IMG/VR virus record: IMGVR_UViG_3300027419_000034
Location: 1 to 61,193 of that record
DNA length: 61,193 bases
Strand: one strand, 5' to 3'
From: a virus
Lineage: Duplodnaviria > Caudoviricetes
Made by a program: the position numbers and the translations under genes. The notes below the pieces were generated by a model, which was not told the origin of the DNA, searched no databases, and saw only the letters and a list, made by a program, of their open reading frames with translations. Positions 36,554 through 55,581 of this stretch are shown piece after piece; the stretch's first letter is position 1; each line of letters opens with the position of its first letter.

Positions 36554-36680
36554 GTTGATAGAATGGAACATACTCATATGGAGTGTAAGTGCAATCACGT
36601 TGGTGTGCATATAGTATGCGCTTGTGGAAAGATTGATGCTTGCATTACTTGTGTTAGTGCTTGTGAGAGGAGAGAACAAA

Positions 36681-37361
36681 ATGGTAGAAAAGACAGAAGC
36701 ACAAAAGGTAGCAGAACTATTTAATAAGAAACCAGTAACATCTGGACAACTTGAAGTAGTTAATAAAGTAGATTATGCTACAATGGATATAAAGGATATA
36801 GAGACTTGGGAACGCCAACTCGCTTTAGTAAAGTCTATAGTAGCAAAGGATTGTAGTGATGATGAGTTTTTATATCTTATTCATCAGGCTAAGTCTTATG
36901 GATTGAATCCTCTTAGGAAAGAAATTTGGGCTGTAAAGTTTGCAGGAAGACCAGCACTTGTTTTTGCAGGAAGAGATGGTTATCTTTCGATAGCACACAA
37001 GTCTGGAAAGTTTGGTAGTATGAAAACTACATTCGAGTTTCCAAAAGAAAATAATATTGGAATACCAATCTCAGCAACTTGCTTAGTCTTTAGAAAAGAT
37101 TATAATTTACCATTTGAATGCACAGTATTCTTTAACGAGTATAACTCAAGTAGTAATCCATTGTGGAAGAAGATGCCTTGTGTAATGCTTGGTAAGGTTG
37201 CAGAATCATCTTGTCTTAGGAGAGCATTTAATATAAGTGGATTATATGACCCGTCAGAAATGGATAACTCTGGTCTAATTCACGCATCAAATAATAGTTC
37301 TAATAAAGAAATAGTAATAGAAAAGGTAGATGTTATTAATGAACACAACTCTGGAGAATGA
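36681..37361 (+). CDS. bet: RecT/Bet-family ssDNA annealing protein
   Basis: GLNPLRKEIW, GRDGY..IA, WKKMP.VML.KVAES..LRRAF.ISGLY..SEM. Confidence 0.9.
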   Translation: MVEKTEAQKVAELFNKKPVTSGQLEVVNKVDYATMDIKDIETWERQLALVKSIVAKDCSDDEFLYLIHQAKSYGLNPLRKEIWAVKFAGRPALVFAGRDGYLSIAHKSGKFGSMKTTFEFPKENNIGIPISATCLVFRKDYNLPFECTVFFNEYNSSSNPLWKKMPCVMLGKVAESSCLRRAFNISGLYDPSEMDNSGLIHASNNSSNKEIVIEKVDVINEHNSGE

Positions 37362-38059
37362 AATCTGTGTAGTCTGTAATAAGGATAAAGCAGTAATCTT
37401 TTGTTCTTGTTGTGGAAGAGGTTGTTGTATAAAGTGTTTTAATAAAGATGAGAATGAAGTTTGGAAGAAGTTAGAAGAAGTTCATAAAGAAGGTGTGAAG
37501 AATGAGTGAATTATTTTTAGGATTTGTTGGTGGTTTAGTAGCATCTGGAATTACTTATACTATCTATAAGGGTAGTCACCAAGATTTAAAAGAAGAAGGA
37601 TATAAGAAAGGATATTTAGAATCAGAAGAAAAGAGTAAGTTTGAATATAATAAAGGATTTCAAGATGGAGTAAGAAGATATAAAGATTCAGAATTTGAAG
37701 AATATAGTAGAATGGTATATCGTAAAAATAATGAAATAAAGAATCTTTCTGAAACTATAGAAAGACTTGAAAAAGAATTACTTACATCTAATACTTCTAT
37801 GAATGTAGTTTGTATTTGTAATTGCAAAGATTGTAAAAAGAAAAAGAGGAAGTGAATAATATGTGTCCAAGTAATTGTTTTGCAGATGGAATAGTAGGAG
37901 CAATAATAGTAGCCGTATTTATAGGTGTAGAATATTGTGTATATCAACTCGGTAAATCAGACGGAAGATATAACGGTTTTAAAGATGGTTATGAAGATGC
38001 AGAAAAATTCTATAAAGAATATATAAAAAAGTATTATAAATCAAAGTAATAATTATAGT

Positions 38060-38170
38060 GGGGGCTTTGTAGAAATAACTGATGGCCGTGTGCCGCAAAC
38101 TAGCTACAGTAATTGATTGTATGTTTGAATACAGGATATGTTGCCGGTGCAACTCCGGCAGCCTCCACCA
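38060..38170 (+). ncRNA. tRNA-Ala-mimic / tmRNA-like RNA
   Basis: Acceptor GGGGGCT/AGCCTCC with G3-U70, A73, CCA; T-arm GCCGG-TGCAACT-CCGGC; no standard D/anticodon arms. Confidence 0.7.
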
Positions 38171-38448
38171 ATATATTTATTAAAAGTGAATAGAATGGAA
38201 ACTGTAGAACAAGAATTGTTGAGTATAGCAGATAGAACTTTAAAAGCAGAGTTTCCAAAAGTAGGAAAATTAAAAAAGACCAATAAATCTATTATAATAT
38301 TTTTAAATAAAAATTTAGATAAAAGAACAATAATATCAATAAGTAAAGATGAAATAGATTCAGCACCACTCTTACCACTTTTACAAAATAAACTTCCATT
38401 TGATATGAGAGAAATAGATGTTCATATGATTAATAAATTTTATATGGA

Positions 38449-38949
38449 GTGATTCTTATGGTATCAAGAATAATATGGGGTAATAGTCCACCAATAACAT
38501 TATCAGATGGAGACGAACTAAGAATAGATAATAATCTATTAACATATGGTAATGGAATTGTTAATAGTGGAAGAAGAACAATATCACTAATAAAGTCACT
38601 TAGAGATTCAGGATTAGCATTAGATTATAATAATAAAGAGGAGGAGATACAAATGGCAGACGCAGGAAGTCGTTACAGCATCATTGAGAACTTGGCGAAA
38701 GACAAGTTACTTGCTGAAATGGCAATCAAGAATGAAAAGAATAGGATTAGTGGACTCGAAGCAAAACTTCGCAACTGGAAACAGGATATAGCTCGTAGTC
38801 AGCAACAACTTGAAAACGAACTTGAAGATGCTAAAGCAGTAGCAGTAGTAGAAACAGAGTTCAACAACAAGAAGATTGTTCAACTCGATGCTGCAATAGC
38901 ACAGATTCAGAAGATTTCTGAGACTGTCGAAAAAGGAAACAAGGAGTAA
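38449..38949 (+). CDS. Coiled-coil protein
   Basis: Internal strong RBS suggests start MADAGS at 38653. Confidence 0.6.
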   Translation: MILMVSRIIWGNSPPITLSDGDELRIDNNLLTYGNGIVNSGRRTISLIKSLRDSGLALDYNNKEEEIQMADAGSRYSIIENLAKDKLLAEMAIKNEKNRISGLEAKLRNWKQDIARSQQQLENELEDAKAVAVVETEFNNKKIVQLDAAIAQIQKISETVEKGNKE

Positions 38950-41316: not shown

Positions 41317-41949
41317 ATGAATACAGGTAGAGTATGGCTGACAGCAGATACACACTTTAGCCACGAAGTAATGATAGACAAATATGGAAGACCATTTAAG
41401 AATGCGACTGAGATGGATTCCAAACTCATTAAAGCGTGGAATAACTGTGTAGCACCAAATGATACTATACTCCATCTAGGAGACCTATCAATAGTATGCG
41501 GAGACAAAATAGGGTTTATCAACGCAACCAAAATGCAACAAATACTCAATGGACTTAATGGACATAAAGTATTAATTAAAGGTAATCACGATAAGAAATC
41601 AAACGCTTGGTATATGAAAGTAGGATTTGATAATGTCTGTGATGCAATGGTAATAAGTAATAATATATTTACTCATACACCAGTAAAGAGAGAACTAATG
41701 CAATACTTTAAGTATAACTTTCACGGACACCATCACGCTAATGTATCAGAGAGATATAGAAAGAGTGATGGTTATGTTTGTGTTTCTGTAGAAAGAACTA
41801 AGTATCAACCAGTATTATTGAATGGTTTATTGAAAGATTTAAATAACGTGGTTAAACCAAATCATAAAAAATATATTTCTAATCCTGCTTTATATGAAAA
41901 TGATATAGAGGATTGGACAGAGTTTTATAAAGAAAAAACGGAAGGATAA
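41317..41949 (+). CDS. Calcineurin-like metallophosphoesterase
   Basis: DTH, LGD, GNHD, THTP, HGHHH. Confidence 0.92.
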   Translation: MNTGRVWLTADTHFSHEVMIDKYGRPFKNATEMDSKLIKAWNNCVAPNDTILHLGDLSIVCGDKIGFINATKMQQILNGLNGHKVLIKGNHDKKSNAWYMKVGFDNVCDAMVISNNIFTHTPVKRELMQYFKYNFHGHHHANVSERYRKSDGYVCVSVERTKYQPVLLNGLLKDLNNVVKPNHKKYISNPALYENDIEDWTEFYKEKTEG

Positions 41950-42307
41950 TTTATGGCTAGAAAATTTAATCAAACGAAAAGAAAAACTATTCTAGCAAGA
42001 TATGTAGATTATCCAGATGGTTTTACTTTAATATTTGATAAACCATTAAAAATTAATTCTGATAGAATATATTTTCTATATAATAAATATGATTCAGAAA
42101 CGCATATGGCGTTATTGGATATATATCAAAGGAGAGTGAATAAAAAATGACTAGAAAAAGTTGTATCTTCTGCAAGAAGGTAAAGAATAAGAGTTGTCCT
42201 TATCATAAGGAAAAAGAATCATATATGAATGATAAAGAATTCTATGCATATATTGATAAGAAATCAACAAAAGGAAAGAAAAAGAACAAGAAGAAGAAGT
42301 GAGTTAA

Positions 42308-43265
42308 ATGAGTTGGAAGTTTTGCGATATCGAATCAATGGAGCATCCAGAACAAGACACTCCTAGACTATGACGAAGATGAAATAGTCGTAGAAGAAAA
42401 AGTTGATGGTGGAAATGGTTGCTTCTTTGCAGATGAAGATGGTCTAATTCATATCTGTAGTCGTAATCGTGACTTGATAAGTGATAAGGACACCAAGACT
42501 TTTGCTTTACAACAGAAGTGGCTTTCAACTCAACTCTATAAAGACAAAGTAATAGTTCCAAAAGAATATTACTTCTACTTTGAGCATATGCAGAAGCACA
42601 CTATTCCTTATGGTGATAGTATTCCACCAGTAATAGGATTAGATATTAGACCAAAGGAAGGTGCATTTGGAAAGACACCAATGTTTATTAGTAGAGATAC
42701 AAAGGTTAAGATGTTTACTGAACTTGGTATTCCAACAGTATCTCTTAAGTGGCAAGGTAAAGTTAAGGATTTCAAGAAGTTGAATCTTGAAGATACTGCT
42801 GGTGTTAATTATCACCAGTTACTTGGAACTAGTGCTTACTATCAAGGAGAACCCGAAGGTATTGTAATCAAGAACTATGGTCGTTGTAATGTTTATGGTA
42901 GGCAGATGTTTGGTAAGATAGTTCGTAAAGATTTCAAGGAACTTAACAAGGCTGTCTTCGGTGGAGTTAAGAAGGATAGAAGCGAAACTCTTAAGTTGGT
43001 AGAGTATGCTTGCACTCCTGCTAGAGTTAAGAAGGCTATTCATTCTCTTACTATTGAGGGTGGGAATAAGTTAGAACGTGGTTTGATGAAGCATCTTCCT
43101 ATGACTGTGGTTAAGGATATTTTTAAGGAAGAGTATGAGTATATTCTTAAGAATTGTAAGGAAGTTGATATTCAGACTATGAAGCAGGTTGTTGCTAAAG
43201 AGTGTTTGAGACAACTTGATATAGCAATATATGAGAAAGATAATGGTGAGAAGAATGAAATCTAA
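42308..43265 (+). CDS. RNA ligase (Rnl2-like), frameshifted near the 5' end
   Basis: EEKVDGGN, CSRNR, EGIVIK in one frame; ATG 42308 is in another frame ending at TGA 42371. Confidence 0.75.
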
Positions 43266-45362: not shown

Positions 45363-45436
45363 GGGGATTTAGCTCAGTTCGGTAGAGCATCTGTTTTGCA
45401 AATAGAAGGCCGCGAGTTCAAATCTCGCTTTCTCCA
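45363..45436 (+). tRNA. tRNA-Ala(TGC)
   Basis: TCTGT-TTTGCAA-ATAGA; G3-U70; two acceptor mismatches. Confidence 0.85.
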
Positions 45437-45451
45437 CTAATATTTATTGAA

Positions 45452-45976
45452 GTGTTTATTATGAATTTACTGGTTGTTACAAATTTACAGGAAGCCAATA
45501 TTGCTCTTGAATATCCAATAACATTACGAGAATTAATGTTCTTACAAGAATCTAATATGATTGAAAATGTATATTCATCTAGTGCTTTAATTGATGCTGC
45601 TATAGCTTGGACTTACTTAAAATCAAAGAAGGACTTAACTGAAAAAGATATTCTTAAAGCACATAGTGCATTAATGCGTTCTTATCTTCCTGATAATGAG
45701 GCTGGACATTATAGGACTGTTCAAGTTTATGTTACTGGTTGTAAAGACCTTCCTCCAAAGGCAGAAGAAGTTCCTGCTTTAATGGAAGAGTGGATGGGTA
45801 GAGAGTTTGATAATGAGGAACAGCAGCACGTTGCTTTTGAGAAGATTCATCCTTTTGTGGATGGTAATGGTCGTATTGGTCGTATGTTGTATAATAGGCA
45901 AAGGATTATAAACAAGAAACCAGTTAATGTTATACGCGCTTCTAATAGACAAGAATATTATAAGTGGTTTGAATGA
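45452..45976 (+). CDS. Fic-domain protein
   Basis: HPFVDGNGRIGR. Confidence 0.95.
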   Translation: MFIMNLLVVTNLQEANIALEYPITLRELMFLQESNMIENVYSSSALIDAAIAWTYLKSKKDLTEKDILKAHSALMRSYLPDNEAGHYRTVQVYVTGCKDLPPKAEEVPALMEEWMGREFDNEEQQHVAFEKIHPFVDGNGRIGRMLYNRQRIINKKPVNVIRASNRQEYYKWFE

Positions 45977-46096
45977 CACATAATATAGATAATATGTCAT
46001 TATGTAAGAATGGTTGTTACTGCTTTACATATACAGTTAGAGAAACTAATTGTTGTGGAAAGTGTGGTGTGTATAAAGGAGATTGGAAAGATTAAC

Positions 46097-46172
46097 GGGG
46101 AATAAGTGCTATCTGGTTGCATTAGGCGTTTGGAACGCTTCGGTATCGGTTCAAATCCGGTATTCCTCACCA
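46097..46172 (+). tRNA. tRNA-Pro(TGG)
   Basis: AGGCG-TTTGGAA-CGCTT; CCA encoded. Confidence 0.85.
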
Positions 46173-46176
46173 TTGT

Positions 46177-46250
46177 GGCTCATTCGTATATGAGTATTAT
46201 AGTTGCTTGTCAGGCAATTGAAACGAGTGCGAGTCTCGTATGGGTCGCCA
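46177..46250 (+). tRNA. tRNA-Asp(GTC)
   Basis: GTTGC-TTGTCAG-GCAAT; G73, CCA. Confidence 0.8.
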
Positions 46251-46434
46251 TTAATATATAGAGGGTGTTAAACACGAAAGAACAAGAACTCTAACATTAG
46301 TCCTTCGGGACTTGTTAGAGGAATATAAATGACATCTAAAAACTATAGAAGACTTCCAAAAAATAGGTTAAGAACAAAGTGGTGGAAGATATATAGTAGT
46401 AATGGTGGAAAGAAATAACTTTCTACTATAATAT

Positions 46435-46507
46435 GGGTTTATGGTCTAACTAGGTAGGACAGAAGGTTTACATCCTTCTAGTGAAGATTCAAATTCTTCT
46501 AAGCCCA
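46435..46507 (+). tRNA. tRNA-Val(TAC)
   Basis: GAAGG-TTTACAT-CCTTC. Confidence 0.85.
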
Positions 46508-46529
46508 CTCCGCTAGGTCACACCAAATA

Positions 46530-46600
46530 GGTCTTATAGTTTAGTGGAAAAACACTATGCTGATAACGTAGTGTCCCAAGTTCGATTCTTGGTAAGACCA
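46530..46600 (+). tRNA. tRNA-Ile(GAT)
   Basis: CTATG-CTGATAA-CGTAG. Confidence 0.9.
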
Positions 46601-46605
46601 TTTAT

Positions 46606-46680
46606 GGACGTATAGCTCAATGGCAGAGCTACAGTCTTATACGCTGTTGGTTGGCAGTTCGAGTCTGCCTATGTCCACCA
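46606..46680 (+). tRNA. tRNA-Ile(TAT)
   Basis: ACAGT-CTTATAC-GCTGT; CCA. Confidence 0.88.
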
Positions 46681-46866
46681 TTGTGATTAGTATGAGAAAT
46701 CTAAGAAAAGTGAAGAAAGTAGAGAATTGGATAGCAAAGATTAAACGTGAATCTCCTAAAGGAGTAAGTGTATATGCTTTATCTCACGAAGAGATAGAAG
46801 TTGGTTATCCTGCTATGTCTGGTTTGATTGCTCATAGATATAATATAGCTATTACGTTTATTGAAT

Positions 46867-46938
46867 AGAGATATGGTATAACGGCTATTACAGAGGGCTC
46901 ATAACCCTTTAACGAAAGTTCGACTCTTTCTATCTCTA
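46867..46938 (+). tRNA. Initiator tRNA-Met(CAT)
   Basis: GAGGG-CTCATAA-CCCTT (three G-C pairs); A1-U72. Confidence 0.88.
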
Positions 46939-46941
46939 TAT

Positions 46942-47013
46942 GCCGTAATAACATAATGGTGGTGTGCCTGCCCTGTAAGCAGGAATGTGTAGGTTCGATT
47001 CCTACTTACGGCA
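46942..47013 (+). tRNA. tRNA-Thr(TGT)
   Basis: CCTGC-CCTGTAA-GCAGG; C33. Confidence 0.8.
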
Positions 47014-47016
47014 CTT

Positions 47017-47091
47017 GGATTCGTAGCATAGTTCGGATAATGCGCTTGGCTCTTAACCAAGATATCAAGGGTTCAAATCCCTTCGAGTCCG
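47017..47091 (+). tRNA. tRNA-Lys(CTT)
   Basis: CTTGG-CTCTTAA-CCAAG. Confidence 0.92.
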
Positions 47092-47096
47092 CTTAA

Positions 47097-47169
47097 GCCG
47101 TAATAGCATAATGGTTATTGCACTTGTCTAGTAAACAAGAGATTATAGGTTCGAGTCCTATTTACGGCA
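47097..47169 (+). tRNA. tRNA-Thr(AGT)
   Basis: CTTGT-CTAGTAA-ACAAG. Confidence 0.9.
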
Positions 47170-47414
47170 TACAAAAGTTGGTGATTGATATGGGTAAGAA
47201 GTTTAATGAAGCACAGTTAAAGATAAAACAGATAGAGACGGATATGAAGACTTGTGATATAATGTCTGATAAGTATAGAAATCAGAAAGAAATATTAAAT
47301 GAGCAAAGAAAAATGCTTATTAAAGAATGGTATGGAGTTAATGAAGGAGAGATTATAACTGCTAATACTATTATTAATATTGTTAGATGTATTGATAAGC
47401 AAAAGAAGTAATAA

Positions 47415-47485
47415 GACTATATAGTATAACGGGAGTATATTGGGCTGAAGACCTGAAGGCAAGAGTTCGACTCTCTTTATAGTCA
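47415..47485 (+). tRNA. tRNA-Phe(GAA)
   Basis: TTGGG-CTGAAGA-CCTGA. Confidence 0.85.
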
Positions 47486-47491
47486 TATAAA

Positions 47492-47821
47492 GTGATTACT
47501 ATGGTTAAAGAAGAAGGAACTATAGCTCAACAGACAGAGCAACACTCTACGAAAGTGCAGGCTGTGGGTGCAACTCCCTCTAGTTCCGCTTACGAGTTAA
47601 GTGATAAAGAAAAGTTTGCAGTAGAAATAGTTATTAAGAATCACGAATGTGAAGTTACTAAAGCATTAAAGAATACACATTGTCTTATTAGAAAGATAGA
47701 TAAGATTATAGAGGATGCTTTTACATATAAATATACTCAGACTGGTATTGGAACTGTAACAGAAATTACTTGTGACTTCTGTGATAAAACTTATAATATT
47801 ACTGACTATTCTACTTGGTGA
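47492..47821 (+). CDS. Hypothetical protein overlapping tRNA-Arg
   Basis: C-term YTQTGIGT...CxxC...ITDYSTW looks like a real phage protein. Confidence 0.5.
   Translation: MITMVKEEGTIAQQTEQHSTKVQAVGATPSSSAYELSDKEKFAVEIVIKNHECEVTKALKNTHCLIRKIDKIIEDAFTYKYTQTGIGTVTEITCDFCDKTYNITDYSTW
47516..47588 (+). tRNA. tRNA-Arg(ACG)
   Basis: ACACT-CTACGAA-AGTGC; acceptor GGAACTA/TAGTTCC. Confidence 0.75.
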
Positions 47822-47948
47822 TTATTATGCACGAACATAAATATAAGTTAGTAGATTTTAGTTTTACTAATAATGGTATATGTATGTTAGTAAGATGTGA
47901 ACATCCTAATTGTGGTAAAGAAGTTCATAGTATAGAACACGATTAGAT

Positions 47949-48020
47949 GGGTTTATAGCTCAACGGCAGAGTGTTCGGCTTTTAACCGGAAAGATTAGGG
48001 TTCGATTCCCTATAGACCCA
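47949..48020 (+). tRNA. tRNA-Lys(TTT)
   Basis: TTCGG-CTTTTAA-CCGGA. Confidence 0.92.
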
Positions 48021-48024
48021 CTAT

Positions 48025-48099
48025 GATTATGTTGATGTATTGGTAGCATCCGAGTCTGTGGAACTTGTTGAAAGGGTTCGATTCCCTTACATAATCCCA
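48025..48099 (+). tRNA. tRNA-His(GTG)
   Basis: CGAGT-CTGTGGA-ACTTG; G-1/C73, CCA. Confidence 0.88.
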
Positions 48100-48568
48100 T
48101 TATATTGGGGTGTATTATATGGAAACTATATGGAAAGGTAGAATTGCAATAAATGAATTACAAAAATATCCTACTTGTTTTACAGAACATTTTTATACTA
48201 CTGGAAATACTATAGATGATGCAATTGCTAAAATAAAGAGTTATCTTGAAAAAGAAAAGATTAAGAACTTTGAAATTTTAGAATTAACTTCTTGTTATGG
48301 AACTTTTATTTGAGGTGTATTTGAATGAGTGATAATATTTGGAATATAATTAGTAATGCTAAGAATACTGGTTCTACTATAACTATTGATACTATATATC
48401 ATATTAGAGATGATTATTGTGATTGTGATGAAAGGTGTCATAAGTGTGGTAAGAAGAAGAAAAAGTCTTATCCTTATATAGAACCATTTTCTCCAGCACC
48501 AGACTATCCATATTGGAGTGAACCATATAAGGATGGAATGATTTCCGTAGTTTATTGTAGGTGCTAAG

Positions 48569-48757
48569 ATGAGTGACTGGACTTGGAAACAATATGCCAT
48601 CTACTTGTTTAGGTGGCAATTATCCACTCCAATATTAGCATTAGTATTAATGTTAATGGTTGGATATGATACTTGGGTATCAACTATAGTTGCTAATCTT
48701 ATTGGTGGTTTGATGTTCTTTTGGATTGATATGAGAATATTCAATAAAAAGAAGTGA
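48569..48757 (+). CDS. Small two-TM membrane protein
   Basis: YLFRWQLSTPILA...VANLIGG.MFFWID. Confidence 0.7.
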   Translation: MSDWTWKQYAIYLFRWQLSTPILALVLMLMVGYDTWVSTIVANLIGGLMFFWIDMRIFNKKK

Positions 48758-49232
48758 TTTTATGAATAAACAAATTGGTTGGCAAGAAGCGTTAAGATTG
48801 TTTTATTGTATTCTATTACTTGTAATGTTTTATTTTGGAATGCTTTTTGAACAGTCTAGAGCTTTAGATGTTACAATATCTAACTGTTCATATATTACAA
48901 TACCAAACATTAATAAAACTCAGGATATAATTATTACTGTGACCCCATTACCGACTCCAAGTATTTCGACTGGAAGTAATCCTATTCTGAATAAGATTTT
49001 ACAGGGTAATTATACTGTAAATTATCTTAAGGCTCATTCAGATGGTATTATGGATTATCCTGCCGCTTATAAGATTTGTGATGAGTATATCTGTGTAAGA
49101 TTAACAGTAAATGAGTTTAAAGATTTGAACATAACTGGTGATTGATGTGGGATATTTTAATGAGATGGCAATACCAATTATGCAGAAGTTAGCAGAGAAG
49201 AAAGGTAAGAAGAAAAAGAAGGAAGTTATAGT

Positions 49233-49985
49233 ATGACTGAATTTGAAGATAAGTTTTATAGTGGTATTAGGAAGTATATGATTCAGGAAGAACGTAATCT
49301 TCCTAATGTATATAGAATATCATCTTGTGTATATTGTAAGAGAAAGTCTTATTATTCTAAGGTTTTGAAGAAGCAGTCTGAACCTAATGGTAAGATGCTT
49401 TCTGGAACTTTGTTTCATAGTATTGTTCCTAAAGTTGTTGGAGAACTCATAGAGTTTAAAGACGTTGAGTATGAGAAAGAGTTAGAGTTAGTTTTTGATG
49501 GTTATAAGGTTTTAGGTCATTGTGATGGTTATAGTAAAGATACTTTGTTTGAGTTTAAGTTTACTGCTAAGATAGATTATGAAGAAGTTCCATTACAGTA
49601 TATACTACAGTCTAATTACTATGCTGGTATTGCTAATAAACCTAAGATTAAGATTATACTAATACATAGTGATACACTAAAGGTTAGATGCTATGATATT
49701 AGTTTCTCTCAAGAACTATTTGATAGTATGAATAGAGATATACTAGAAGTTCATAAGTGTATTAGTGAAGGTAAACCACCTCTTGAAGGGCCAAAGTATT
49801 CTTGGGAGTGTAGATTTTGTCCATTCTCTAAGGAGTGTTTTGAAGAGCGTGGTAAGATAGATGAGTATAATGCTCTTATGAAGGTTGGAGAGATTATTAA
49901 GAAAAGGATTGTTAAGAGTAATAGGGCTAAGGCTATTGATGCTAGTAAGATTGTTAATGAGATTATGGAGAGGACTAAGAAATGA
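49233..49985 (+). CDS. Cas4-like PD-(D/E)XK exonuclease
   Basis: C.RK..Y, GT.FH, GHCD, FEFK, Q..YY, ECRFCPF...C. Confidence 0.88.
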   Translation: MTEFEDKFYSGIRKYMIQEERNLPNVYRISSCVYCKRKSYYSKVLKKQSEPNGKMLSGTLFHSIVPKVVGELIEFKDVEYEKELELVFDGYKVLGHCDGYSKDTLFEFKFTAKIDYEEVPLQYILQSNYYAGIANKPKIKIILIHSDTLKVRCYDISFSQELFDSMNRDILEVHKCISEGKPPLEGPKYSWECRFCPFSKECFEERGKIDEYNALMKVGEIIKKRIVKSNRAKAIDASKIVNEIMERTKK

Positions 49986-51047
49986 ATACTGTTATTAATG
50001 GTCTTAAGACTGGAGTATATAAGAAAGAAATTATACAGCATATGAAGAACTCTGGTTTCAAAGTTCTTAAATGGAGAAACAACATACCAGCTTATGCCGA
50101 AAAGGATAACAATGTTTATTCTATTAGAGTTGTAGTAGATACACCGACTACCAGTAAACCATTGATTATGATTGATGGTTTGTTTGCTATGACTAAAAAA
50201 GCCTATAATGTCCTCCAGAAGGTTAAGCCCAAGTTCGCTTGGTATCACCCCAACGAACCAAAAGAACCCAAGAAACAAAGGATAGCTGTGGTTGAGCGTC
50301 CAGATATCGTAAAACACGCCATAGACCCTGCTATACGCTAATCTGTGAGGTCTAGCGTTCAATTTAAGGGCATCTTTTGAAGGTTTTAATTGATTTAATG
50401 ACACTATAATAGTTTTTATATATAAGGTTGATATATATGGTTGTTTCTAATGATGAGTTTTCCAAATACATAAACGCAAAAATAGTATCAATAAACATAT
50501 GCAATGATATAATACATATATATATAAGAAAAGGAAACAATAAAAAAGTATTAAGTATAATAGCACCACTAGGTAAAATAGAAGAATATAAGATAATAAG
50601 ACAAGAAGGAAGTAATACAGTAATACAACCATTAAGAGTAATAGAGGAATTATAATGTGTAACCACGATACCCTACAAGCAGTAATAACATCTAATCCAC
50701 ACGGATGGGCTTCATCATCAGAAAACAGTTTTTTCATCTTCGACTCAAACAGAATGCAAACCCTAATAGGAAAAATATACCAATGCACAATATGCAAAGA
50801 AGAAATAATAATACCAACAGCATTTATATTAAAAAGGTGATACCAATGCCACTAGAAACAATAATAACAAAAAAATGGAGACTCAAAGACATAAACATAC
50901 CAACCAAAGCAAAACTCATAGAAATGGAAGAAGACTGCAATAGAGTAATAGCAGGAAACGAAGGAGACACAAAACTATTCTCACCAGCATTCGTAAACGT
51001 ATGCAAAAGCATACTAGTAGATATAAAGAAAGCAAAAGGTGTAACTA

Positions 51048-51407
51048 ATGAAACTAGCAGTAGTGGGTAGTAGAAGTCTATATAACACACAAGCACAAAC
51101 ACTATTAAGTAATACAATAGACGATATACGCGAATATGCTAAAGTAGAAGAAATAATAACTGGAGGAGCTAGTGGAATAGACGTATTAGCAATAAGATAC
51201 GCTACAATACACAGCATACCATACAAAGTAATAACACCAGACTACAACAAACACGGAAAATACGCACCACTAATAAGAAACAAACAAATAGTAGACGAAT
51301 GCGATAAACTAGTAGCAATATGGGATGGACACTCAACAGGAACATCACACACAGTAAAACTAGCAATGAAACAAAAAAAACTAATAAAAGTCCAACAAGT
51401 AGTTTAA
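51048..51407 (+). CDS. SLOG/YspA-like protein
   Basis: VVGSR, ITGGASGID, A.LIRN..IV, WDG.S.GT. Confidence 0.85.
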   Translation: MKLAVVGSRSLYNTQAQTLLSNTIDDIREYAKVEEIITGGASGIDVLAIRYATIHSIPYKVITPDYNKHGKYAPLIRNKQIVDECDKLVAIWDGHSTGTSHTVKLAMKQKKLIKVQQVV

Positions 51408-51559
51408 CTCTATCTAAGCGAATGTCGTATGGAGAAATAAACAAACGTAGTTTATTGTGACGGCAGAACTGACCCCTGTTCTAAGATTGTGCGTAAGCAC
51501 CCTAGCACTTGAAAAAGTGTTTTAGCATAGAAACTGGTCTGCCTACGATTGCTAAATAA

Positions 51560-51988
51560 ATGGAGATAAACAAAATGACAAACTACACAAGAGGAAGACA
51601 AACAGAATACGAAATAAGAGACTCATTGCGCGAATGCGGGTATGAAGCTATAAGAACTGCCGGGTCTCACAGTCCAATTGATATACTTGGCTGGAACGAC
51701 TTCGAGATTCTTTTTAATCAAATAAAGAGGGTCAAATTTGGAAATAAGTTCTATCCTTCTCCAACCGAAATCAATCGTTTTAAAAACCTCAGTATTCCTA
51801 GTAACGGAAGCAAGTGGATTATAACGAGGATAGATAGTGGAAAGGGCAAAAAAGTAGAATGGACTTTTCAATGCATACAACCTCAAATAGAAAAACAGTT
51901 ATTTATAGGACAGACAATATACGACCATCCACTAATGAAATATTATGAAAGCAAAGGTATAAAATATAGTATGATAACAAATAAATAG
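51560..51988 (+). CDS. hjc: Archaeal-type Holliday junction resolvase
   Basis: NY.RGR..E...R..L...GY...R.AGS...IDI...QIK. Confidence 0.8.
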   Translation: MEINKMTNYTRGRQTEYEIRDSLRECGYEAIRTAGSHSPIDILGWNDFEILFNQIKRVKFGNKFYPSPTEINRFKNLSIPSNGSKWIITRIDSGKGKKVEWTFQCIQPQIEKQLFIGQTIYDHPLMKYYESKGIKYSMITNK

Positions 51989-52342
51989 GTGAGAACAATG
52001 GAAAAAGTAGTAGACACAGAAGGAAAAGAATGTCGGGTATTCTACATACACCACAGAAAGAAAGACTCAAACGGAGTCCCAAAAGCTAACGGTGGAATAA
52101 CCTACGCATACACAACAGTAAACGATGAAGCAAAAGTAGCAACAATAGAAGAAATAAGCTACTGTGCTAAAGCACGTTGCTCAAAGAAAGATGGTTATAG
52201 TAAAAAGACTGGAAGAACAATAGCAACACAAAGACTCCAAAATGCAATGGATATAGAAGTAGAAAGAAACGATATGAATGAAAAGGTGTTTAGCGAGTTC
52301 GTAAAACTCGCACCCACCGAATCAAAAAGAGTATGGGGATAA
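51989..52342 (+). CDS. Small phage protein
   Basis: GGIT...A.CS.KD.Y.KK.GR.IA..RL pattern. Confidence 0.7.
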   Translation: MRTMEKVVDTEGKECRVFYIHHRKKDSNGVPKANGGITYAYTTVNDEAKVATIEEISYCAKARCSKKDGYSKKTGRTIATQRLQNAMDIEVERNDMNEKVFSEFVKLAPTESKRVWG

Positions 52343-52475
52343 ACTATGAATACCTTTGATTTCATAAATAAATACTTCTGGATAATATGGCTTGCATTAG
52401 CAATAATAGGAGTCATATTTGTAGGAGCATTAATATTCATACTAGGCAAATTTCTTAATGCTTGGTAAGAAACAC

Positions 52476-52546
52476 AGTCCTATCGTATAACGGAAGTATA
52501 TTCGGCTCTGAACCGAATGGAATGGGTTCGATTCCTGTTAGGACTA
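52476..52546 (+). tRNA. tRNA-Gln(CTG)
   Basis: TTCGG-CTCTGAA-CCGAA; A1-U72. Confidence 0.88.
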
Positions 52547-52551
52547 TAAAC

Positions 52552-52635
52552 GCTAGTATGGCAGATTGGAGAATGCGGAGGACTTAAAATCCTCTAACCG
52601 CAGGGTTGCTGTCGGTTCGATTCCGACTACTAGCA
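52552..52635 (+). tRNA. tRNA-Leu(TAA)
   Basis: GAGGA-CTTAAAA-TCCTC; long variable arm. Confidence 0.9.
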
Positions 52636-52642
52636 CTATAGA

Positions 52643-52724
52643 ACGCGATGAGCAAGTCGGATAATGCGGGAGACTCAAAATCTCTTGATTTAGTTCTTAG
52701 CAGGTTCAACTCCTGCATCGCGTA
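52643..52724 (+). tRNA. tRNA-Leu(CAA)
   Basis: GGAGA-CTCAAAA-TCTCT. Confidence 0.88.
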
Positions 52725-53038
52725 TAAATAAAAAGAGGAGATTACAATGAAAAACACACAAGATAAAAATACTGTTCTTATAAAACAAATAAGATTAGAA
52801 CAAATAGATGATAAAATACATAGTAAACATAAAAGAGTAGATGATATATATAATGATATAGGAATTAAAAATTCAATAAGAATACCATTTACAAGAATAA
52901 GTATAGTAAAAGATATAAAAGAACTTAGACAACAATTAATTGATTATAATTATTTACAACAAGATATAATAGACCTCTATGAAGAAAGAAGAAAAATAGA
53001 AAAAATAACTACAAAAAATATATTTAAATAAAATAAAA

Positions 53039-53110
53039 GCAGATAAAGTGTTAATGACTGCACGATTGCCTTCCAAGCAATAAGATTGGGTTTAATTCCC
53101 TGTATCTGCA
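53039..53110 (+). tRNA. tRNA-Gly(TCC)
   Basis: ATTGC-CTTCCAA-GCAAT; imperfect T-arm. Confidence 0.78.
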
Positions 53111-53197
53111 TATACAATGTCCGTCAGGTTGCAAGATATCTCAAAGGTATCAACGGAGTGGGGTTTGGAAATACCTGAACTTACTTACCCCAATAAT

Positions 53198-53271
53198 GGT
53201 AGTATGGCTGATTGGTTAGGCATCGGATTGCAGACCCGACTAAAGGAGTTCGATTCTCTTTACTATCTCCA
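53198..53271 (+). tRNA. tRNA-Cys(GCA)
   Basis: TCGGA-TTGCAGA-CCCGA; U73, CCA. Confidence 0.85.
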
Positions 53272-53292
53272 AAAAAGTAGGTGAAATAAATA

Positions 53293-53691
53293 ATGAGAGG
53301 ACAAGGAGAAATAGCATACACACTACTAATAGCAGGAATACTGTTATTTGCAGTAGCAGGATGGATGGTAGTAGCACCACTATATGGAGTATGGCAACAA
53401 GAATAAGAAGGAAAAGCAGAATACGCAAAAGCAGAATATAGTAGACAAATAGCAGTAGTAGAAGCACAAGCAAAACTAGACTCAGCAAGCAAACTAGCAG
53501 AAGCAGAAGTTGCTAGAGCAAGAGGAGTAGCACAAGCAAACGAAATAATTGGTGCATCACTAGAAAACAACGAAGCATATCTACACTATCTATGGGTAAA
53601 CAATCTTGAAAAGATAGGTAATGCACAAGTAATATATGTGCCAACAGAAAATGGTATGCCAATAATGGAAGCAGGAAGAACAATAAAATAA
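53293..53691 (+). pseudogene. Phage membrane protein with in-frame TAA at codon 38
   Basis: MRGQGE..TM..PLYGVWQQE*EGKAEYAKAEYSRQIAVVEAQA...YLHYLW...VIYVPTENGMPIMEAGR. Confidence 0.75.
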
Positions 53692-53718
53692 ACAGATTGG
53701 GATAAAACCCAATCCAAT

Positions 53719-53789
53719 GTTCGTTTGGTATAGAGGAAACACATTAGGCTTTCGACCTAAAATCACGGGTTCGAGTCCCGTAACGAACA
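53719..53789 (+). tRNA. tRNA-Glu(TTC)
   Basis: TTAGG-CTTTCGA-CCTAA. Confidence 0.88.
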
Positions 53790-53814
53790 CTAAAACAAAA
53801 AGAGGTAATAAACA

Positions 53815-54039
53815 ATGAACATTATGAAAGCACTAGAAAATCTAGGAATAGTAGTAGCAGTAATAGCAGTAGTAGCAATAGTAATCTTCCTCGTAGGATG
53901 GATATTCTCCCTATTCTGGAACTTTGTAATGCCATACTTGTTCGGACTTAAAGAAATAGATTGGGCGCAAGCACTCGCAGTATTAGTAGTGTTCCAAGCA
54001 CTCTTTGGAAAAAGCGTTCCAGTAAACGTAAAAGTCTAA
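53815..54039 (+). CDS. Small membrane protein
   Basis: WNFVMPYLFGLKEIDWAQAL. Confidence 0.7.
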   Translation: MNIMKALENLGIVVAVIAVVAIVIFLVGWIFSLFWNFVMPYLFGLKEIDWAQALAVLVVFQALFGKSVPVNVKV

Positions 54040-54047
54040 ACAAATAA

Positions 54048-54119
54048 GTTCGTATAGTTTAAGAGCAAAATACTTGGTTCTCAACCAAGAGACTTTGGGT
54101 GCGAGTCCCAATACGAACA
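54048..54119 (+). tRNA. tRNA-Glu(CTC)
   Basis: CTTGG-TTCTCAA-CCAAG. Confidence 0.85.
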
Positions 54120-54149
54120 TTTTTATATTAAAACAAACAATATAATATG

Positions 54150-54220
54150 CTTGTCTTAGCTCAATGGCAGAGCAATCGGCTGTAGACCGAAAGATGCGAG
54201 TTCGACTCTAGCAGATAAGA
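54150..54220 (+). tRNA. tRNA-Tyr(GTA), archaeal type
   Basis: TCGG-CTGTAGA-CCGA; C1-G72, short variable loop. Confidence 0.8.
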
Positions 54221-54227
54221 CTCTAAA

Positions 54228-54299
54228 GGGATTATAGTGTAATTGGCAACACAACAGTCTCCAGAACTGTTATTAAAGATTCGACTTCTTTTAATCCCA
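54228..54299 (+). tRNA. tRNA-Trp(CCA)
   Basis: ACAGT-CTCCAGA-ACTGT. Confidence 0.85.
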
Positions 54300-54306
54300 C
54301 TCAAAT

Positions 54307-54382
54307 GGTAATGAAGTGTAACTGGTTGCATTTTCGACTGTTAATCGAAAGGTAGATAGTTCGAGCCTATCCTTTACCGCCA
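54307..54382 (+). tRNA. tRNA-Asn(GTT)
   Basis: TTCGA-CTGTTAA-TCGAA; G73, CCA. Confidence 0.85.
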
Positions 54383-54384
54383 AT

Positions 54385-54460
54385 GGACTTATAGCATAAC
54401 TTGGACAATGCACCGGACTTCTAAGCCGTGATTATTCGGGTTCAAATCCTGATAAGTCCG
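54385..54460 (+). tRNA. tRNA-Arg(TCT)
   Basis: Loop CTTCTAA; imperfect anticodon stem. Confidence 0.8.
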
Positions 54461-54464
54461 TAGA

Positions 54465-54551
54465 ACCAGTATAAGACGAAATGGTTAAACGTCACCCGCT
54501 AAGAACGGGATGCCCGTAGGGGCTTTGTGGGTTCAAATCCTACTACTGGTA
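54465..54551 (+). tRNA. tRNA-Leu(AAG)
   Basis: CCCG-CTAAGAA-CGGG; long variable arm. Confidence 0.82.
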
Positions 54552-54556
54552 TGAAT

Positions 54557-54639
54557 GTTGGGATAACCTAATCTGGTAAGGTAACGGTTTGCTAAACCGT
54601 GATGTAAAAGTCTTATGGGTTCAAATCCCATTCCTAACG
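54557..54639 (+). tRNA. tRNA-Ser(GCT)
   Basis: ACGGT-TTGCTAA-ACCGT; G73. Confidence 0.88.
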
Positions 54640-54646
54640 CTCAAAA

Positions 54647-54733
54647 GGCAGTCTTCTCCTAAACGGTAAAGGTCTCGTCTAGAAAACGAGGGCTGTAACA
54701 GGCATACAGGTTCGACTCCTGTGGCTGTCGCCA
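54647..54733 (+). tRNA. tRNA-Ser(AGA)
   Basis: CTCGT-CTAGAAA-ACGAG; long arm, G73, CCA. Confidence 0.82.
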
Positions 54734-54745
54734 TAATATATTAGA

Positions 54746-55267
54746 GTGATAACTATGATACTATATAACTATTCAAATTTTAACAATAATCTAATAGAAA
54801 AAATGTATAATTTTTCAAACCCAATAAAAGATGAACATATACCACTAATAATAAAAGACTTTAACAAAATAGAATATAAATGGCATAATCCAGAAGTTGT
54901 AGTATCTTTAGGATATTTTAATTGGACAAGAACTAACTATAATTCTAAAAGAAAACCAAATATAAAAATATTAGTAAATAGTAACTTTAATAAATTTCCA
55001 TTTATATGTAAAGGATTTAAAAATTATTATGGAGAAGAATACTTAGAAAAAGAATTTAAAAATAATGAAGAAGTATTACTAACAACAATAGCACACGAAC
55101 TTTATCATTATAAACAATTTAAAGATAAAACTGCATATAAAGAAAAAGATGCAGATACTTATGCAATAAAAAAACTAGACGAATGGAGAACTATAATGGC
55201 TTCGAGTCATATACAACCTTTTCAAGAGAAGTTATACGAGCAAGAATCCTACTCTCCAAATCATTAA
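54746..55267 (+). CDS. HExxH zincin-like metallopeptidase
   Basis: TIAHELYH.KQ...EKDAD.YA. Confidence 0.75.
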   Translation: MITMILYNYSNFNNNLIEKMYNFSNPIKDEHIPLIIKDFNKIEYKWHNPEVVVSLGYFNWTRTNYNSKRKPNIKILVNSNFNKFPFICKGFKNYYGEEYLEKEFKNNEEVLLTTIAHELYHYKQFKDKTAYKEKDADTYAIKKLDEWRTIMASSHIQPFQEKLYEQESYSPNH

Positions 55268-55460
55268 TCCTATCCTTATTAGCATCATCAGTAAACTGCT
55301 GCAATCTAGAAACAAGAAGAGTTCTCTTAATGAGTTCAGTTAAATCATTAACGTCCTCATCACTAACAACCCAAACACGCTTACCAATAAGCGCACCCGG
55401 AACTACAACAGCACCATTCTTAGTAGCTCCCCACTCACGAACAATACAATCCTTAATCAT
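55191..55460 (-). CDS. DUF2080/AbrB-like protein
   Basis: VREWG...GAVVVP..LIGKRVWV. Confidence 0.55.
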   Translation of the reverse strand: MIKDCIVREWGATKNGAVVVPGALIGKRVWVVSDEDVNDLTELIKRTLLVSRLQQFTDDANKDRINDLESRILARITSLEKVVYDSKPL

Positions 55461-55501
55461 ACAATACCCACTTCATTAAAATAAAAAAAAAGAAATAAAA
55501 T

Positions 55502-55572
55502 AGCAGATTGGTTTAATGGAAACACACAGGGTTTTGACCCCTGAGTTATCGGTTCGATTCCGGTATCTGCTA
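55502..55572 (+). tRNA. tRNA-Gln(TTG)
   Basis: CAGGG-TTTTGAC-CCCTG; A1-U72. Confidence 0.85.
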
Positions 55573-55581
55573 TACTACTTC

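What the first reader, a model, noticed from the sequence alone, without database searches (positions are those of the whole stretch)
38060..38170. 111-nt alanine-tRNA mimic resembling a miniature tmRNA
Seen: 7-bp acceptor with G3-U70, A73 and encoded CCA, plus a 5-bp T-arm, but ~80 nt between them with no canonical D/anticodon arms. This interior has AAATAACT followed by a short frame GAT..TGA (38081-38116, DGRVPQTSYSN*). Known: an Ala acceptor plus T-arm is the tmRNA tRNA-like domain, and ATAACTG resembles the tmRNA resume context; archaea lack tmRNA/SmpB, and no smpB is visible here. It lies away from the tRNA clusters. Inference: ribosome-rescue RNA, nuclease decoy, or tRNA with a non-canonical intron.
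Basis: partly seen in the sequence, partly recalled or inferred. Interest (0 to 1): 0.8.

Follow-up and report, generated by a model that had tools for sequence, protein, structure and literature searches.

The report
Orphan alanine-type tRNA look-alike, archaeal virus
A 111-base gene in an uncultured groundwater virus keeps a perfect alanine-type tRNA "handling end" but has a rebuilt body that cannot read codons, so it is most likely a tRNA mimic of unknown use, not a miniature tmRNA.

Summary
Positions 38060-38170 hold a perfect 7-bp acceptor stem (G3:U70, A73, encoded CCA) and a 5-bp T arm. The T loop, UGCAACU, also occurs in this virus's own tRNA-Arg. The geometry alone is common by chance (319 of 1000 shuffles). 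With a T-loop consensus it is rare (1 of 1000), and with the alanine marks as well it never occurred (0 of 1000).

The window is a complete 61-kb tailed virus with 29 tRNAs. Those tRNAs carry archaeal identity marks.

The 76 bases between the acceptor strand and the T arm fold into a D-like stem carrying an 18-nt GC hairpin, then a 9-nt linker, then a hairpin with a 6-nt loop. There is no alanine anticodon. ARAGORN and the Rfam tRNA and tmRNA models do not call it. Neither a BHB scan nor 2751 single and 33754 double deletions turn it into an ordinary tRNA-Ala.

Genuine miniature tmRNAs exist in viral contigs, found here in passing. Three of the four that Rfam's tmRNA model matched reach its threshold. 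This element does not match at all, and the virus has no SmpB.

No homologue, covariation or RNA data could be obtained.

Best reading (about 0.5): a tRNA-derived, non-decoding mimic processed like a tRNA. Earlier notes of this scan report similar phage tRNA look-alikes on other DNA; those notes are unchecked.

The parts
38060..38170 (+). whole tRNA-like element, 111 nt, 49% G+C in a roughly 32% G+C genome
38060..38066 (+). acceptor 5' strand GGGGGCU
   Evidence: pair probabilities 0.98-0.99 for six pairs and 0.51 for the seventh
38069..38072 (+). D-like stem 5' strand GUAG, preceded by U8 and followed by A14. A12-G13 also sits where tRNA-like-domain-only mini-tmRNAs have an invariant AG.
38080..38097 (+). 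GC-rich hairpin UGAUGGC-CGUGU-GCCGCA inserted in the D-loop region; unique in the genome
38104..38107 (+). D-like stem 3' strand CUAC, followed by A (position 26 analogue) and a 9-nt linker
   Evidence: the model aligns ordinary tRNA D arms here
38117..38134 (+). anticodon-arm analogue: 6-bp stem UUGUAU/AUACAG with 6-nt loop GUUUGA; no Ala anticodon and no 7-nt loop
38143..38159 (+). T arm GCCGG-UGCAACU-CCGGC with G at position 55. The same loop occurs in the viral tRNA-Arg(ACG).
38160..38170 (+). acceptor 3' strand AGCCUCC (U70), discriminator A73, encoded CCA
37852..38049 (+). upstream 65-aa ORF whose stop lies 10 nt before the element
38185..38452 (+). Shine-Dalgarno-like AGUGA (38185-89) and ATG (38195) of the next ORF, 24 nt after the CCA. 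This is the same tRNA-then-RBS-then-ORF layout seen after 9 of the 14 tRNA 3' ends printed.
38032..38039 (+). TATA-like TATTATAA, 21-28 nt upstream of G1. A possible archaeal promoter; this is inference only, because the genome is AT-rich and the other tRNAs show no shared box.

Best explanation
The element is a tRNA-derived gene for a non-decoding tRNA look-alike.

The top half is perfect. It consists of the acceptor stem with G3:U70 and A73, the encoded CCA, and a T arm with a T loop of the type this virus's own tRNAs use. By established knowledge, that half is the part recognised by RNase P, by 3'-end processing and CCA enzymes, and by alanyl-tRNA synthetase.

The bottom half is rebuilt. 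It has an 18-nt GC hairpin in the D-loop region, a 9-nt linker, an arm with a 6-nt loop and an 8-nt variable region. It therefore cannot act as an ordinary adaptor.

Proposed mechanism, all inferred:
1. It is transcribed with its neighbours on the + strand.
2. The host's tRNA-end-processing enzymes cut it out. This also trims the mRNA just upstream of the next gene's ribosome-binding site.
3. It persists as a stable CCA-ended RNA that the host AlaRS can probably charge.
4. It then either occupies a tRNA-binding host factor (synthetase, elongation factor, or a tRNA-directed defence enzyme) or serves mainly as a processing signal.

Shown: the anatomy, its non-random nature, its genomic layout, and its failure to match tRNA or tmRNA models.
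Inferred: transcription, processing, charging and function.
For: - Perfect top half with T-loop consensus: 1 of 1000 shuffles. With the alanine marks as well: 0 of 1000.
- A T-loop-based scan of both strands finds only known tRNAs plus this element.
- T loop UGCAACU is identical to that of the viral tRNA-Arg(ACG). Two more viral tRNAs (Asp, Glu-CUC) have UGCGAGU, so a G at position 55 is native to this virus.
- All four helices are predicted with probability 0.64-0.99, apart from the seventh acceptor pair at 0.51.
- A model built from the element aligns ordinary tRNAs arm for arm: D arm, anticodon arm, T arm.
- The element fills a 145-nt gap in a tightly packed + strand operon.
- It has the same layout as real tRNAs here: the 3' end is followed within about 30 nt by an SD-like motif and an ATG, as for 9 of 14 tRNA 3' ends printed.
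- G+C is 49% against about 32% for the genome. The inserted hairpin is GC-rich and unique, which is unlike random decay.
- G3:U70 is the conserved alanine determinant, and minihelices suffice as substrates (PMC9976931, passages).
- The virus invests heavily in tRNA biology: 29 tRNAs, and a phosphoesterase plus RNA ligase pair 3-5 kb downstream.
- Two other expanded CCA-ended tRNA-like genes that ARAGORN does not call sit in viral contigs: L270 (108 nt), whose locus holds 13 tRNAs, and L305 (95 nt, G3:U70), whose locus holds one.
Against: - No homologue was found anywhere, so there is no conservation or covariation evidence:
  - 0 exact matches of the 3' 28-mer in viral contigs.
  - 0 matches of a 22-mer in genome contigs.
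  - No model hit beyond ordinary tRNAs in 160 RecT-linked loci.
  - No hit beyond a weak E 0.26 match in 5 whole records of TerL relatives.
  - Among 80 loci sharing the T loop, the best score was 34 bits, driven by the top half alone.
- The three runs that hold the DNA carry it identically, so they give no variation.
- The folding z-score is not significant.
- The bare geometry is frequent by chance.
- The 4-bp D-like stem could itself be a chance pairing.
- The Rfam tRNA model gives no match even at E <= 10.
- The 9-nt linker and 6-nt loop are also what a decaying gene might show.
- Nothing here shows transcription, processing or charging.
Confidence: 0.5

Rival explanations
1. A decaying tRNA gene. 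An old tRNA, perhaps tRNA-Ala, picked up insertions in the D loop and between the arms and lost a base in the anticodon loop. It is now a functionless relic.
For: - Orphan, with no homologue found.
- Non-canonical linker and 6-nt loop.
- After removing 24 nt from the D loop and the 9-nt linker, ARAGORN calls a tRNA with a two-base 'anticodon'. The element therefore reads as a tRNA plus insertions.
- Folding z-score is not significant.
- tRNA-rich viruses often carry odd tRNA genes.
Against: - All helices are intact, and the acceptor and T arms have no mismatch at all. The virus's working tRNA-Ala, by contrast, has two U-U mismatches in its acceptor stem (my reading).
- The largest insertion is itself a stable GC hairpin in an AT-rich genome.
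- CCA is encoded, although only 7 of 29 viral tRNAs encode it.
- The compact genome keeps 145 nt for it.
Confidence: 0.22
2. A real tRNA carrying one or more non-canonical introns. These would be removed by the archaeal splicing endonuclease or by virus-encoded RNA repair enzymes.
For: - The host is probably archaeal.
- The virus encodes a phosphoesterase and an RNA ligase nearby. A review suggests that Rnl2-type ligases of the archaeal virus HGTV-1 may be involved in tRNA intron removal (PMC8651126, passage).
- The element is 35 nt longer than a 76-nt tRNA.
Against: - ARAGORN with introns finds nothing at its default threshold.
- Only 3 of 2751 single deletions give any tRNA call. All three are marginal class II shapes with His or Tyr anticodons and no U33.
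- Only 16 of 33754 double deletions give a call, and none has an Ala anticodon.
- In the BHB scan (4-bp central helix, two 3-nt bulges), the only motif with both outer and inner helices of at least 2 bp that spares the T arm (intron 27-62) leaves no cloverleaf on removal.
- All 29 other tRNAs are intron-less.
Confidence: 0.07
3. A miniature tmRNA or tRNA-like-domain mimic. It would act in ribosome rescue, or inhibit it by titrating SmpB, as proposed for the tRNA-like-domain-only RNA of mycobacteriophage DS6A.
For: - G3:U70, A73, CCA and a T loop UGCAACU. That T loop also occurs in many permuted tmRNAs and in tRNA-like-domain-only RNAs of viral contigs.
- A12-G13 and the start of a hairpin at position 21 match the layout of the tRNA-like-domain-only family.
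- The model of that family scores the element at 36.3 bits, above every tRNA in the window. That family was retrieved with a pattern taken from this element, so the 3' half of the score is circular.
- Precedent: PMC4131195 (passages).
Against: - Rfam tmRNA RF00023 matches 4 of 5 tRNA-like-domain-only loci at 36-51 bits. It gives no match to this element at E <= 10.
- ARAGORN's tmRNA search finds nothing.
- The GGAUUCGAC and GGACG motifs are absent, and 45 extra nt lie between the hairpin and the T arm.
- No P2 helix closes the interior.
- The frame is largely base-paired and ends ...SYSN.
- No SmpB in the virus.
- tRNA-Tyr is class I with C1:G72 and the initiator has A1:U72, both archaeal marks. 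All candidate ssrA hits in archaeal genomes were rejected (PMC4131195, passage).
Confidence: 0.05
4. Not an RNA gene at all. It would be a chance inverted repeat, or a DNA or mRNA-level signal such as a terminator or attachment site copied from a host tRNA gene.
For: - The bare geometry occurs in 319 of 1000 shuffles.
- Archaeal proviruses often integrate in tRNA genes (PMC8651126, passage).
Against: - T-loop consensus plus alanine marks: 0 of 1000 shuffles.
- No tyrosine integrase in the virus.
- No genome in the 185,579-species collection holds the 22-mer. Only 5 unrelated bacteria hold a loosened 25-mer.
- An attachment site would need only the 3' half, not a matching 5' strand.
Confidence: 0.04

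Closest known systems
tRNA-like-domain-only 'mini-tmRNA' of phages: mycobacteriophage DS6A (PMC4131195) and a 73-83-nt family found here in IMG/VR contigs (L286, L299, L248, L259, L318, L288, L258, L320)
   Same: Virus-encoded. Acceptor stem with G3:U70, A73 and encoded CCA. T arm with loop UGCAACU. No anticodon. AG at positions 12-13, and a hairpin starting at position 21.
   Different: - Those RNAs have the conserved tmRNA motifs (..AUUCGAC....GGACG) and a single P2 hairpin. Four of five are matched by Rfam tmRNA.
- This element lacks the motifs, has 45 extra nt with a second hairpin and a D-like stem, and is not recognised.
- It sits in a virus whose tRNAs are archaeal-type, where no SmpB partner is expected.
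Canonical tRNA-Ala (Rfam RF00005), including the virus's own tRNA-Ala(UGC) at 45363-45436
   Same: G3:U70, A73, 7-bp acceptor stem, 5-bp T stem with 7-nt T loop. U8, G10:C25-like and A14/A26-like positions.
   Different: 111 nt instead of about 76. There is no 7-nt anticodon loop and no Ala anticodon. It has a hairpin in the D loop, a 9-nt linker and an 8-nt variable region. It gets no Rfam tRNA match at E <= 10 and no ARAGORN call.
Other expanded, non-decoding tRNA look-alikes in tRNA-rich phage contigs
   Same: An intact top half with CCA, a rebuilt bottom half, a location in viral contigs that also carry tRNA genes, and no call from tRNA finders.
   Different: The interiors are unrelated (R1 scores 31 and 21 bits, from the top half). 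The hosts appear bacterial, since class II tRNA-Tyr occurs in such contigs. L270 has C3:G70.
tRNA-like processing signals in polycistronic transcripts (plant mitochondrial t-elements, PMC1920247; search listing and start of abstract only)
   Same: A tRNA-like structure between coding regions that could set mRNA ends through RNase P and RNase Z.
   Different: Whether those elements keep aminoacylation marks or an encoded CCA was not seen in any call. No cleavage data exist for this element.

Membership tests
tmRNA (Rfam RF00023 and the permuted models) | tRNA-like domain: acceptor stem with G3:U70, T arm, 3' CCA | tested here: met
tmRNA (Rfam RF00023 and the permuted models) | Recognition by tmRNA models and finders (conserved D-loop analogue GGAUUCGAC, GGACG before the T arm) | tested here: not met
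   No RF00023 match at E <= 10; only 12.1 bits to tmRNA_permuted, over the T arm to the CCA. ARAGORN -m finds nothing at a lowered threshold. Positive control: tRNA-like-domain-only RNAs score 36-51 bits.
tmRNA (Rfam RF00023 and the permuted models) | P2 helix closing the interior, pseudoknots, and a single-stranded resume codon with a tag ending in a hydrophobic degron | tested here: not met
   The fold gives independent hairpins and no P2. The frame starts inside a helix, and the peptide is DGRVPQTSYSN. Tags in real viral-contig tmRNAs end ..LAA or ..IAA.
tmRNA (Rfam RF00023 and the permuted models) | SmpB partner available | tested here: not met
   No SmpB in the virus. The host genome is not available. 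The tRNA marks indicate an archaeon.
Canonical tRNA (RF00005) | Cloverleaf with 7-nt anticodon loop (U33, purine 37), a single nucleotide between the D and anticodon stems, and a model score above threshold | tested here: not met
Intron-containing archaeal tRNA | Bulge-helix-bulge motif whose excision leaves a canonical tRNA | tested here: not met
Alanine-accepting RNA (AlaRS substrate) | G3:U70 in a regular acceptor helix, A73, free CCA end | tested here: met
   Sequence features are present; identity rules from PMC9976931. Actual charging is not testable with these tools.
YrlA / Y RNA-like tRNA mimics | Ro-binding stem formed by the RNA ends, with a neighbouring Ro60/TROVE gene | tested here: not met
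   No YrlA match in the Rfam E-value scan. No TROVE domain in the virus.
tRNA-like mRNA processing signal (t-element type) | Intact acceptor/T minihelix placed between coding regions of one transcript, cleaved by RNase P or RNase Z | tested here: inconclusive
   The placement criterion is met. Cleavage is not testable here.

The most novel reading that the evidence does not exclude
An archaeal virus makes an alanine-chargeable tRNA mimic that acts in trans on the host. For example, it might soak up AlaRS, the elongation factor, or a tRNA-directed defence enzyme. It would be an archaeal-virus counterpart of the tRNA-like-domain-only RNAs of bacteriophages, working without SmpB.
Probability: 0.12. 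Interest if true: 0.75.

Novelty: new variant of a known kind. Interest (0 to 1): 0.42.

Why it matters
Viruses that carry many tRNAs are thought to be fighting over the host's translation system. Non-decoding tRNA look-alikes may be part of that fight, but none has an established function.

This one is unusual in two ways. It has a flawless alanine-type acceptor end, and it sits in a virus whose tRNAs are archaeal-type. In that setting the only well-known alanine-type tRNA mimic, tmRNA, does not exist.

If it is made and charged, it would give a simple handle on how an archaeal virus uses tRNA mimicry. An in vitro RNase P and AlaRS assay on a 111-nt RNA would test that.

The control family found in passing is of interest in its own right. 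It consists of 73-83-nt tRNA-like-domain-only tmRNA genes in viral contigs, with covarying stems.

Tried and rejected
Homologue searches that found nothing useful:
- Exact 28-mer in viral contigs.
- 22-mer, then a loosened 25-mer, in genome contigs. The second gave 5 unrelated bacterial hits.
- blastn of 1.5 kb against phage records.
- Close relatives of the downstream ORF, RecT and TerL in viral contigs.
- Model R1 over 80 viral and 80 metagenome RecT loci.
- R1 over 5 whole records of TerL relatives.
- R1 over 80 loci sharing the T loop.
- Earlier-findings look-ups by sequence and by relatives.

TerL relatives in IMG/VR reach only 37% identity. These are TerL 81% (P0122, a 3.2-kb contig), TerL about 40% on 51-59-kb contigs, and RecT 56% on a 61.7-kb contig.

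Sequencing runs: no RNA holder was listed. The three DNA runs, all groundwater metagenomes, carry the stretch without a single difference where covered. They therefore give no covariation and no information on expression or RNA ends.

Rejected readings:
- tmRNA.
- BHB-intron tRNA.
- Sec, Pyl or suppressor tRNA. My reading: no UCA anywhere, and no CUA preceded by U.
- C/D-box sRNA. My reading: CUGA and UGAUGG overlap each other and have no partner box.
- Y RNA.
- Attachment site.
- Repeated hairpin element.

Cluster look-up gave no organism names for relatives.

The claim that T4 encodes stable tRNA-like 'species 1' RNA is recalled only. Search one search found no paper holding that phrase.

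Supplementary files were not consulted.

Full report
**What the window is.** The 61,193-nt window is a whole IMG/VR virus record, rated 100% complete. It is a tailed virus: large terminase and portal match PHROG families, and a RecT recombinase lies at 36624-37361. It carries 29 tRNA genes. ARAGORN finds 27 and Rfam adds two more. None lies at 38060-38170.

The host is probably an archaeon.
- The viral tRNA-Tyr is a 72-nt class I tRNA with C1:G72.
- The initiator-type tRNA-Met has A1:U72 and three G:C pairs at the bottom of its anticodon stem (my reading).
- C1:G72 is the archaeal and eukaryal tyrosine identity pair, whereas bacteria use G1:C72 (PMC9976931, passage).
- Bacteriophage contigs fetched later carry class II tRNA-Tyr of 85-87 nt starting with G1.

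The DNA occurs, letter for letter, in three groundwater metagenome runs.

**The observation.** The acceptor stem GGGGGCU/AGCCUCC is perfect, with G3:U70, A73 and CCA. The T arm GCCGG-UGCAACU-CCGGC is perfect too.

I tested chance with dinucleotide shuffles of the whole window.

| Requirement | Shuffles with at least one hit |
|---|---|
| Bare geometry | 319 of 1000 |
| Plus T-loop consensus | 1 of 1000 |
| Plus G3:U70 and A73 | 8 of 1000 |
| Plus both | 0 of 1000 |

A scan for T-loop consensus plus both stems, on both strands and without requiring CCA, returned 23 of the 29 tRNAs and this element and no other locus. The T loop UGCAACU, with G at position 55, is the same as in the viral tRNA-Arg(ACG). 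tRNA-Asp and tRNA-Glu(CUC) have UGCGAGU. In those three tRNAs the D loop reads AG where others read GG (my reading). The element is therefore tRNA-derived and uses this virus's own style of T loop.

**Anatomy of the interior.** The MFE and centroid folds give a four-way junction.
- Acceptor stem.
- A D-like stem GUAG/CUAC, flanked by U8, A14 and an A at the position-26 analogue.
- Inside that loop, an 18-nt GC hairpin (38080-38097), unique in the genome.
- A 9-nt linker.
- An arm with a 6-bp stem and a 6-nt loop GUUUGA.
- An 8-nt variable region.
- The T arm.

Pair probabilities are 0.64-0.99 for all but the seventh acceptor pair, which is 0.51. A covariance model built from the element aligns ordinary tRNAs to it arm for arm. 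The folding z-score is unremarkable (-1.1; -1.6), but 12 of the virus's real tRNAs range from -3.9 to +0.3. The 4-bp D-like stem could be a chance pairing, so I do not lean on it.

**Is it an ordinary tRNA after splicing?** No.
- ARAGORN with introns finds nothing at its default threshold. At 80% threshold it forces a poor tRNA-Ile(AAU) model.
- Of 2751 single deletions, 3 are called tRNAs. All three are 90-nt class II shapes with His or Tyr anticodons and no U33.
- Of 33754 double deletions, 16 are called, and none has an Ala anticodon. One pair, removing 24 nt of the D loop and the 9-nt linker, yields a tRNA with a two-base 'anticodon'. That restates the anatomy.
- The bulge-helix-bulge scan found only one motif with both flanking helices of at least 2 bp that spares the T arm (intron 27-62), and its removal does not leave a cloverleaf.

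**Is it a miniature tmRNA?** No, and there is now a positive control.

Evidence from the element and the virus:
- The Rfam E-value scan of 37900-38350 gives only 12.1 bits to the permuted-tmRNA model, over the T arm, acceptor 3' strand and CCA. It gives nothing to RF00023 or to the tRNA model.
- ARAGORN's tmRNA search is empty.
- The virus has no SmpB.
- All candidate ssrA hits in archaeal genomes were rejected in a survey of 137 archaeal genomes (PMC4131195, passage).

The positive control came from a pattern taken from the element's T loop and 3' end, which matched at least 120 viral contigs. Of the 80 loci returned:
- 33 are permuted tmRNAs by ARAGORN, with tags ending ..LAA or ..IAA.
- Eight are 73-83-nt RNAs made of little more than a tRNA-like domain: acceptor with invariant G3:U70, an AG plus ..UUCGAC D-loop analogue, one hairpin, GGACG, T arm, ACCA. 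Their stems covary; 12 of 18 pairs have double changes across 7 sequences.
- Rfam's tmRNA model matches four of the five such loci scanned, at 36-51 bits, three of them above its threshold.

These RNAs are the kind reported for mycobacteriophage DS6A (PMC4131195).

My element shares with them the top half, AG at positions 12-13 and a hairpin starting at position 21. A model of the family gives it 36.3 bits. However, the family was retrieved with the element's own 3' pattern, so most of that score is circular. The element lacks both conserved tmRNA motifs. It has 45 extra nt before the T arm and is invisible to RF00023. I keep a tmRNA-domain relationship at about 5%.

**Context.** The element fills the 145-nt gap between a 65-aa ORF (stop at 38049) and an 85-aa ORF (ATG at 38195, preceded by AGUGA) in a long + strand operon. 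Of the 14 tRNA 3' ends I printed, 9 are followed within about 30 nt by an SD-like motif and an ATG. The spacer after tRNA-Ala (..AUAUUUAUUGAAGUG..) closely resembles the one after the element (..AUAUUUAUUAAAAGUG..). The virus thus treats this element as it treats its tRNA genes.

A phosphoesterase (41317-41949) and an RNA ligase (42474-43265) lie 3-5 kb downstream. Immediate neighbours have no informative family match. No integrase, TROVE or AlaRS/AlaX second additional domain is found.

**Homologues.** None was found. The virus's relatives in reachable collections are distant: RecT at most 60% identity, and TerL at most 37% in IMG/VR. There is therefore no covariation test and no expression evidence.

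**Verdict.** The element is real and tRNA-derived, and it is neither an ordinary tRNA nor a tmRNA.
- About 0.5: a selected, non-decoding tRNA look-alike whose intact alanine-type top half lets host enzymes process it and probably charge it.
- About 0.22: a decaying tRNA gene.
- About 0.07: an intron-bearing tRNA.
- About 0.05: a tmRNA-domain mimic.
- About 0.04: chance or a DNA-level signal.

Which job the mimic does, factor decoy or mRNA-processing signal, is open.

Similar expanded tRNA-like genes occur in other viral contigs. L270 is 108 nt, in a locus with 13 tRNAs, and L305 is 95 nt with G3:U70. Earlier notes of this scan also describe them (unchecked). I therefore rate this a new variant of a known kind, notable for its archaeal-type setting.

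Noticed in passing
L286:5883-5955, L299:4382-4454, L248:585-666, L259:12183-12260, L318:1389-1466, L288:4545-4624, L258:2080-2162, L320:2510-2592: A family of 73-83-nt tRNA-like-domain-only 'mini-tmRNA' genes in IMG/VR viral contigs. G3:U70 is invariant, and the acceptor, P2 and T stems covary (12 of 18 pairs with double changes). The T loop is UGCAACU and CCA is encoded. Rfam tmRNA matches 4 of the 5 scanned. Only mycobacteriophage DS6A was named for this kind in the paper I read.
   Followed up: partly
33 of the 80 loci returned are permuted tmRNAs with tags such as ANDNFALAA and GNSNFALAA. Several others are class II tRNA-Tyr. G55 T loops go with AG instead of GG in the D loop or its analogue.
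   Followed up: partly
L270:12080-12187 (-) and L305:9431-9525 (-): Two more expanded, CCA-ended tRNA-like genes (108 and 95 nt; L305 has G3:U70) that ARAGORN does not call, even with introns. L270 sits in a locus with 13 tRNAs.
   Followed up: partly
window 45363-45976: The virus's tRNA-Ala(UGC) has two U-U mismatches at the base of its acceptor stem (6:67, 7:66). It is followed directly by a Fic/DOC-family protein gene (45452-45976, Pfam E 4e-15).
   Followed up: no
window 41317-43265: A phosphoesterase (phrog_547, E 1e-35; Pfam Metallophos) and an RNA ligase (phrog_548, E 8e-17): an RNA repair pair, in a virus with 29 tRNAs.
   Followed up: partly
window 45363-55573: tRNA genes are interleaved with small ORFs. 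9 of the 14 tRNA 3' ends printed are followed within about 30 nt by an SD-like GGUGA/AGUGA/GAGG motif and an ATG. This suggests that tRNA processing sets mRNA 5' ends throughout this region.
   Followed up: partly
window 54150-54220, 46867-46938: tRNA-Tyr is class I with C1:G72, and the initiator-type tRNA-Met has A1:U72. These are archaeal-type identity marks in a 61-kb tailed virus from groundwater that carries 29 tRNAs.
   Followed up: partly
proteins P0152, P0158 (TerL relatives): Two TerL relatives of 843-845 aa carry intein or homing-endonuclease Pfam domains (PF14528, PF13403, PF14890). They are intein-containing terminases in this virus group.
   Followed up: no
window 38013-38024 and 38171-38182: A 12-nt, 83% complementary inverted repeat brackets the element and could form a leader-trailer pairing. 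It may be chance in AT-rich DNA.
   Followed up: no
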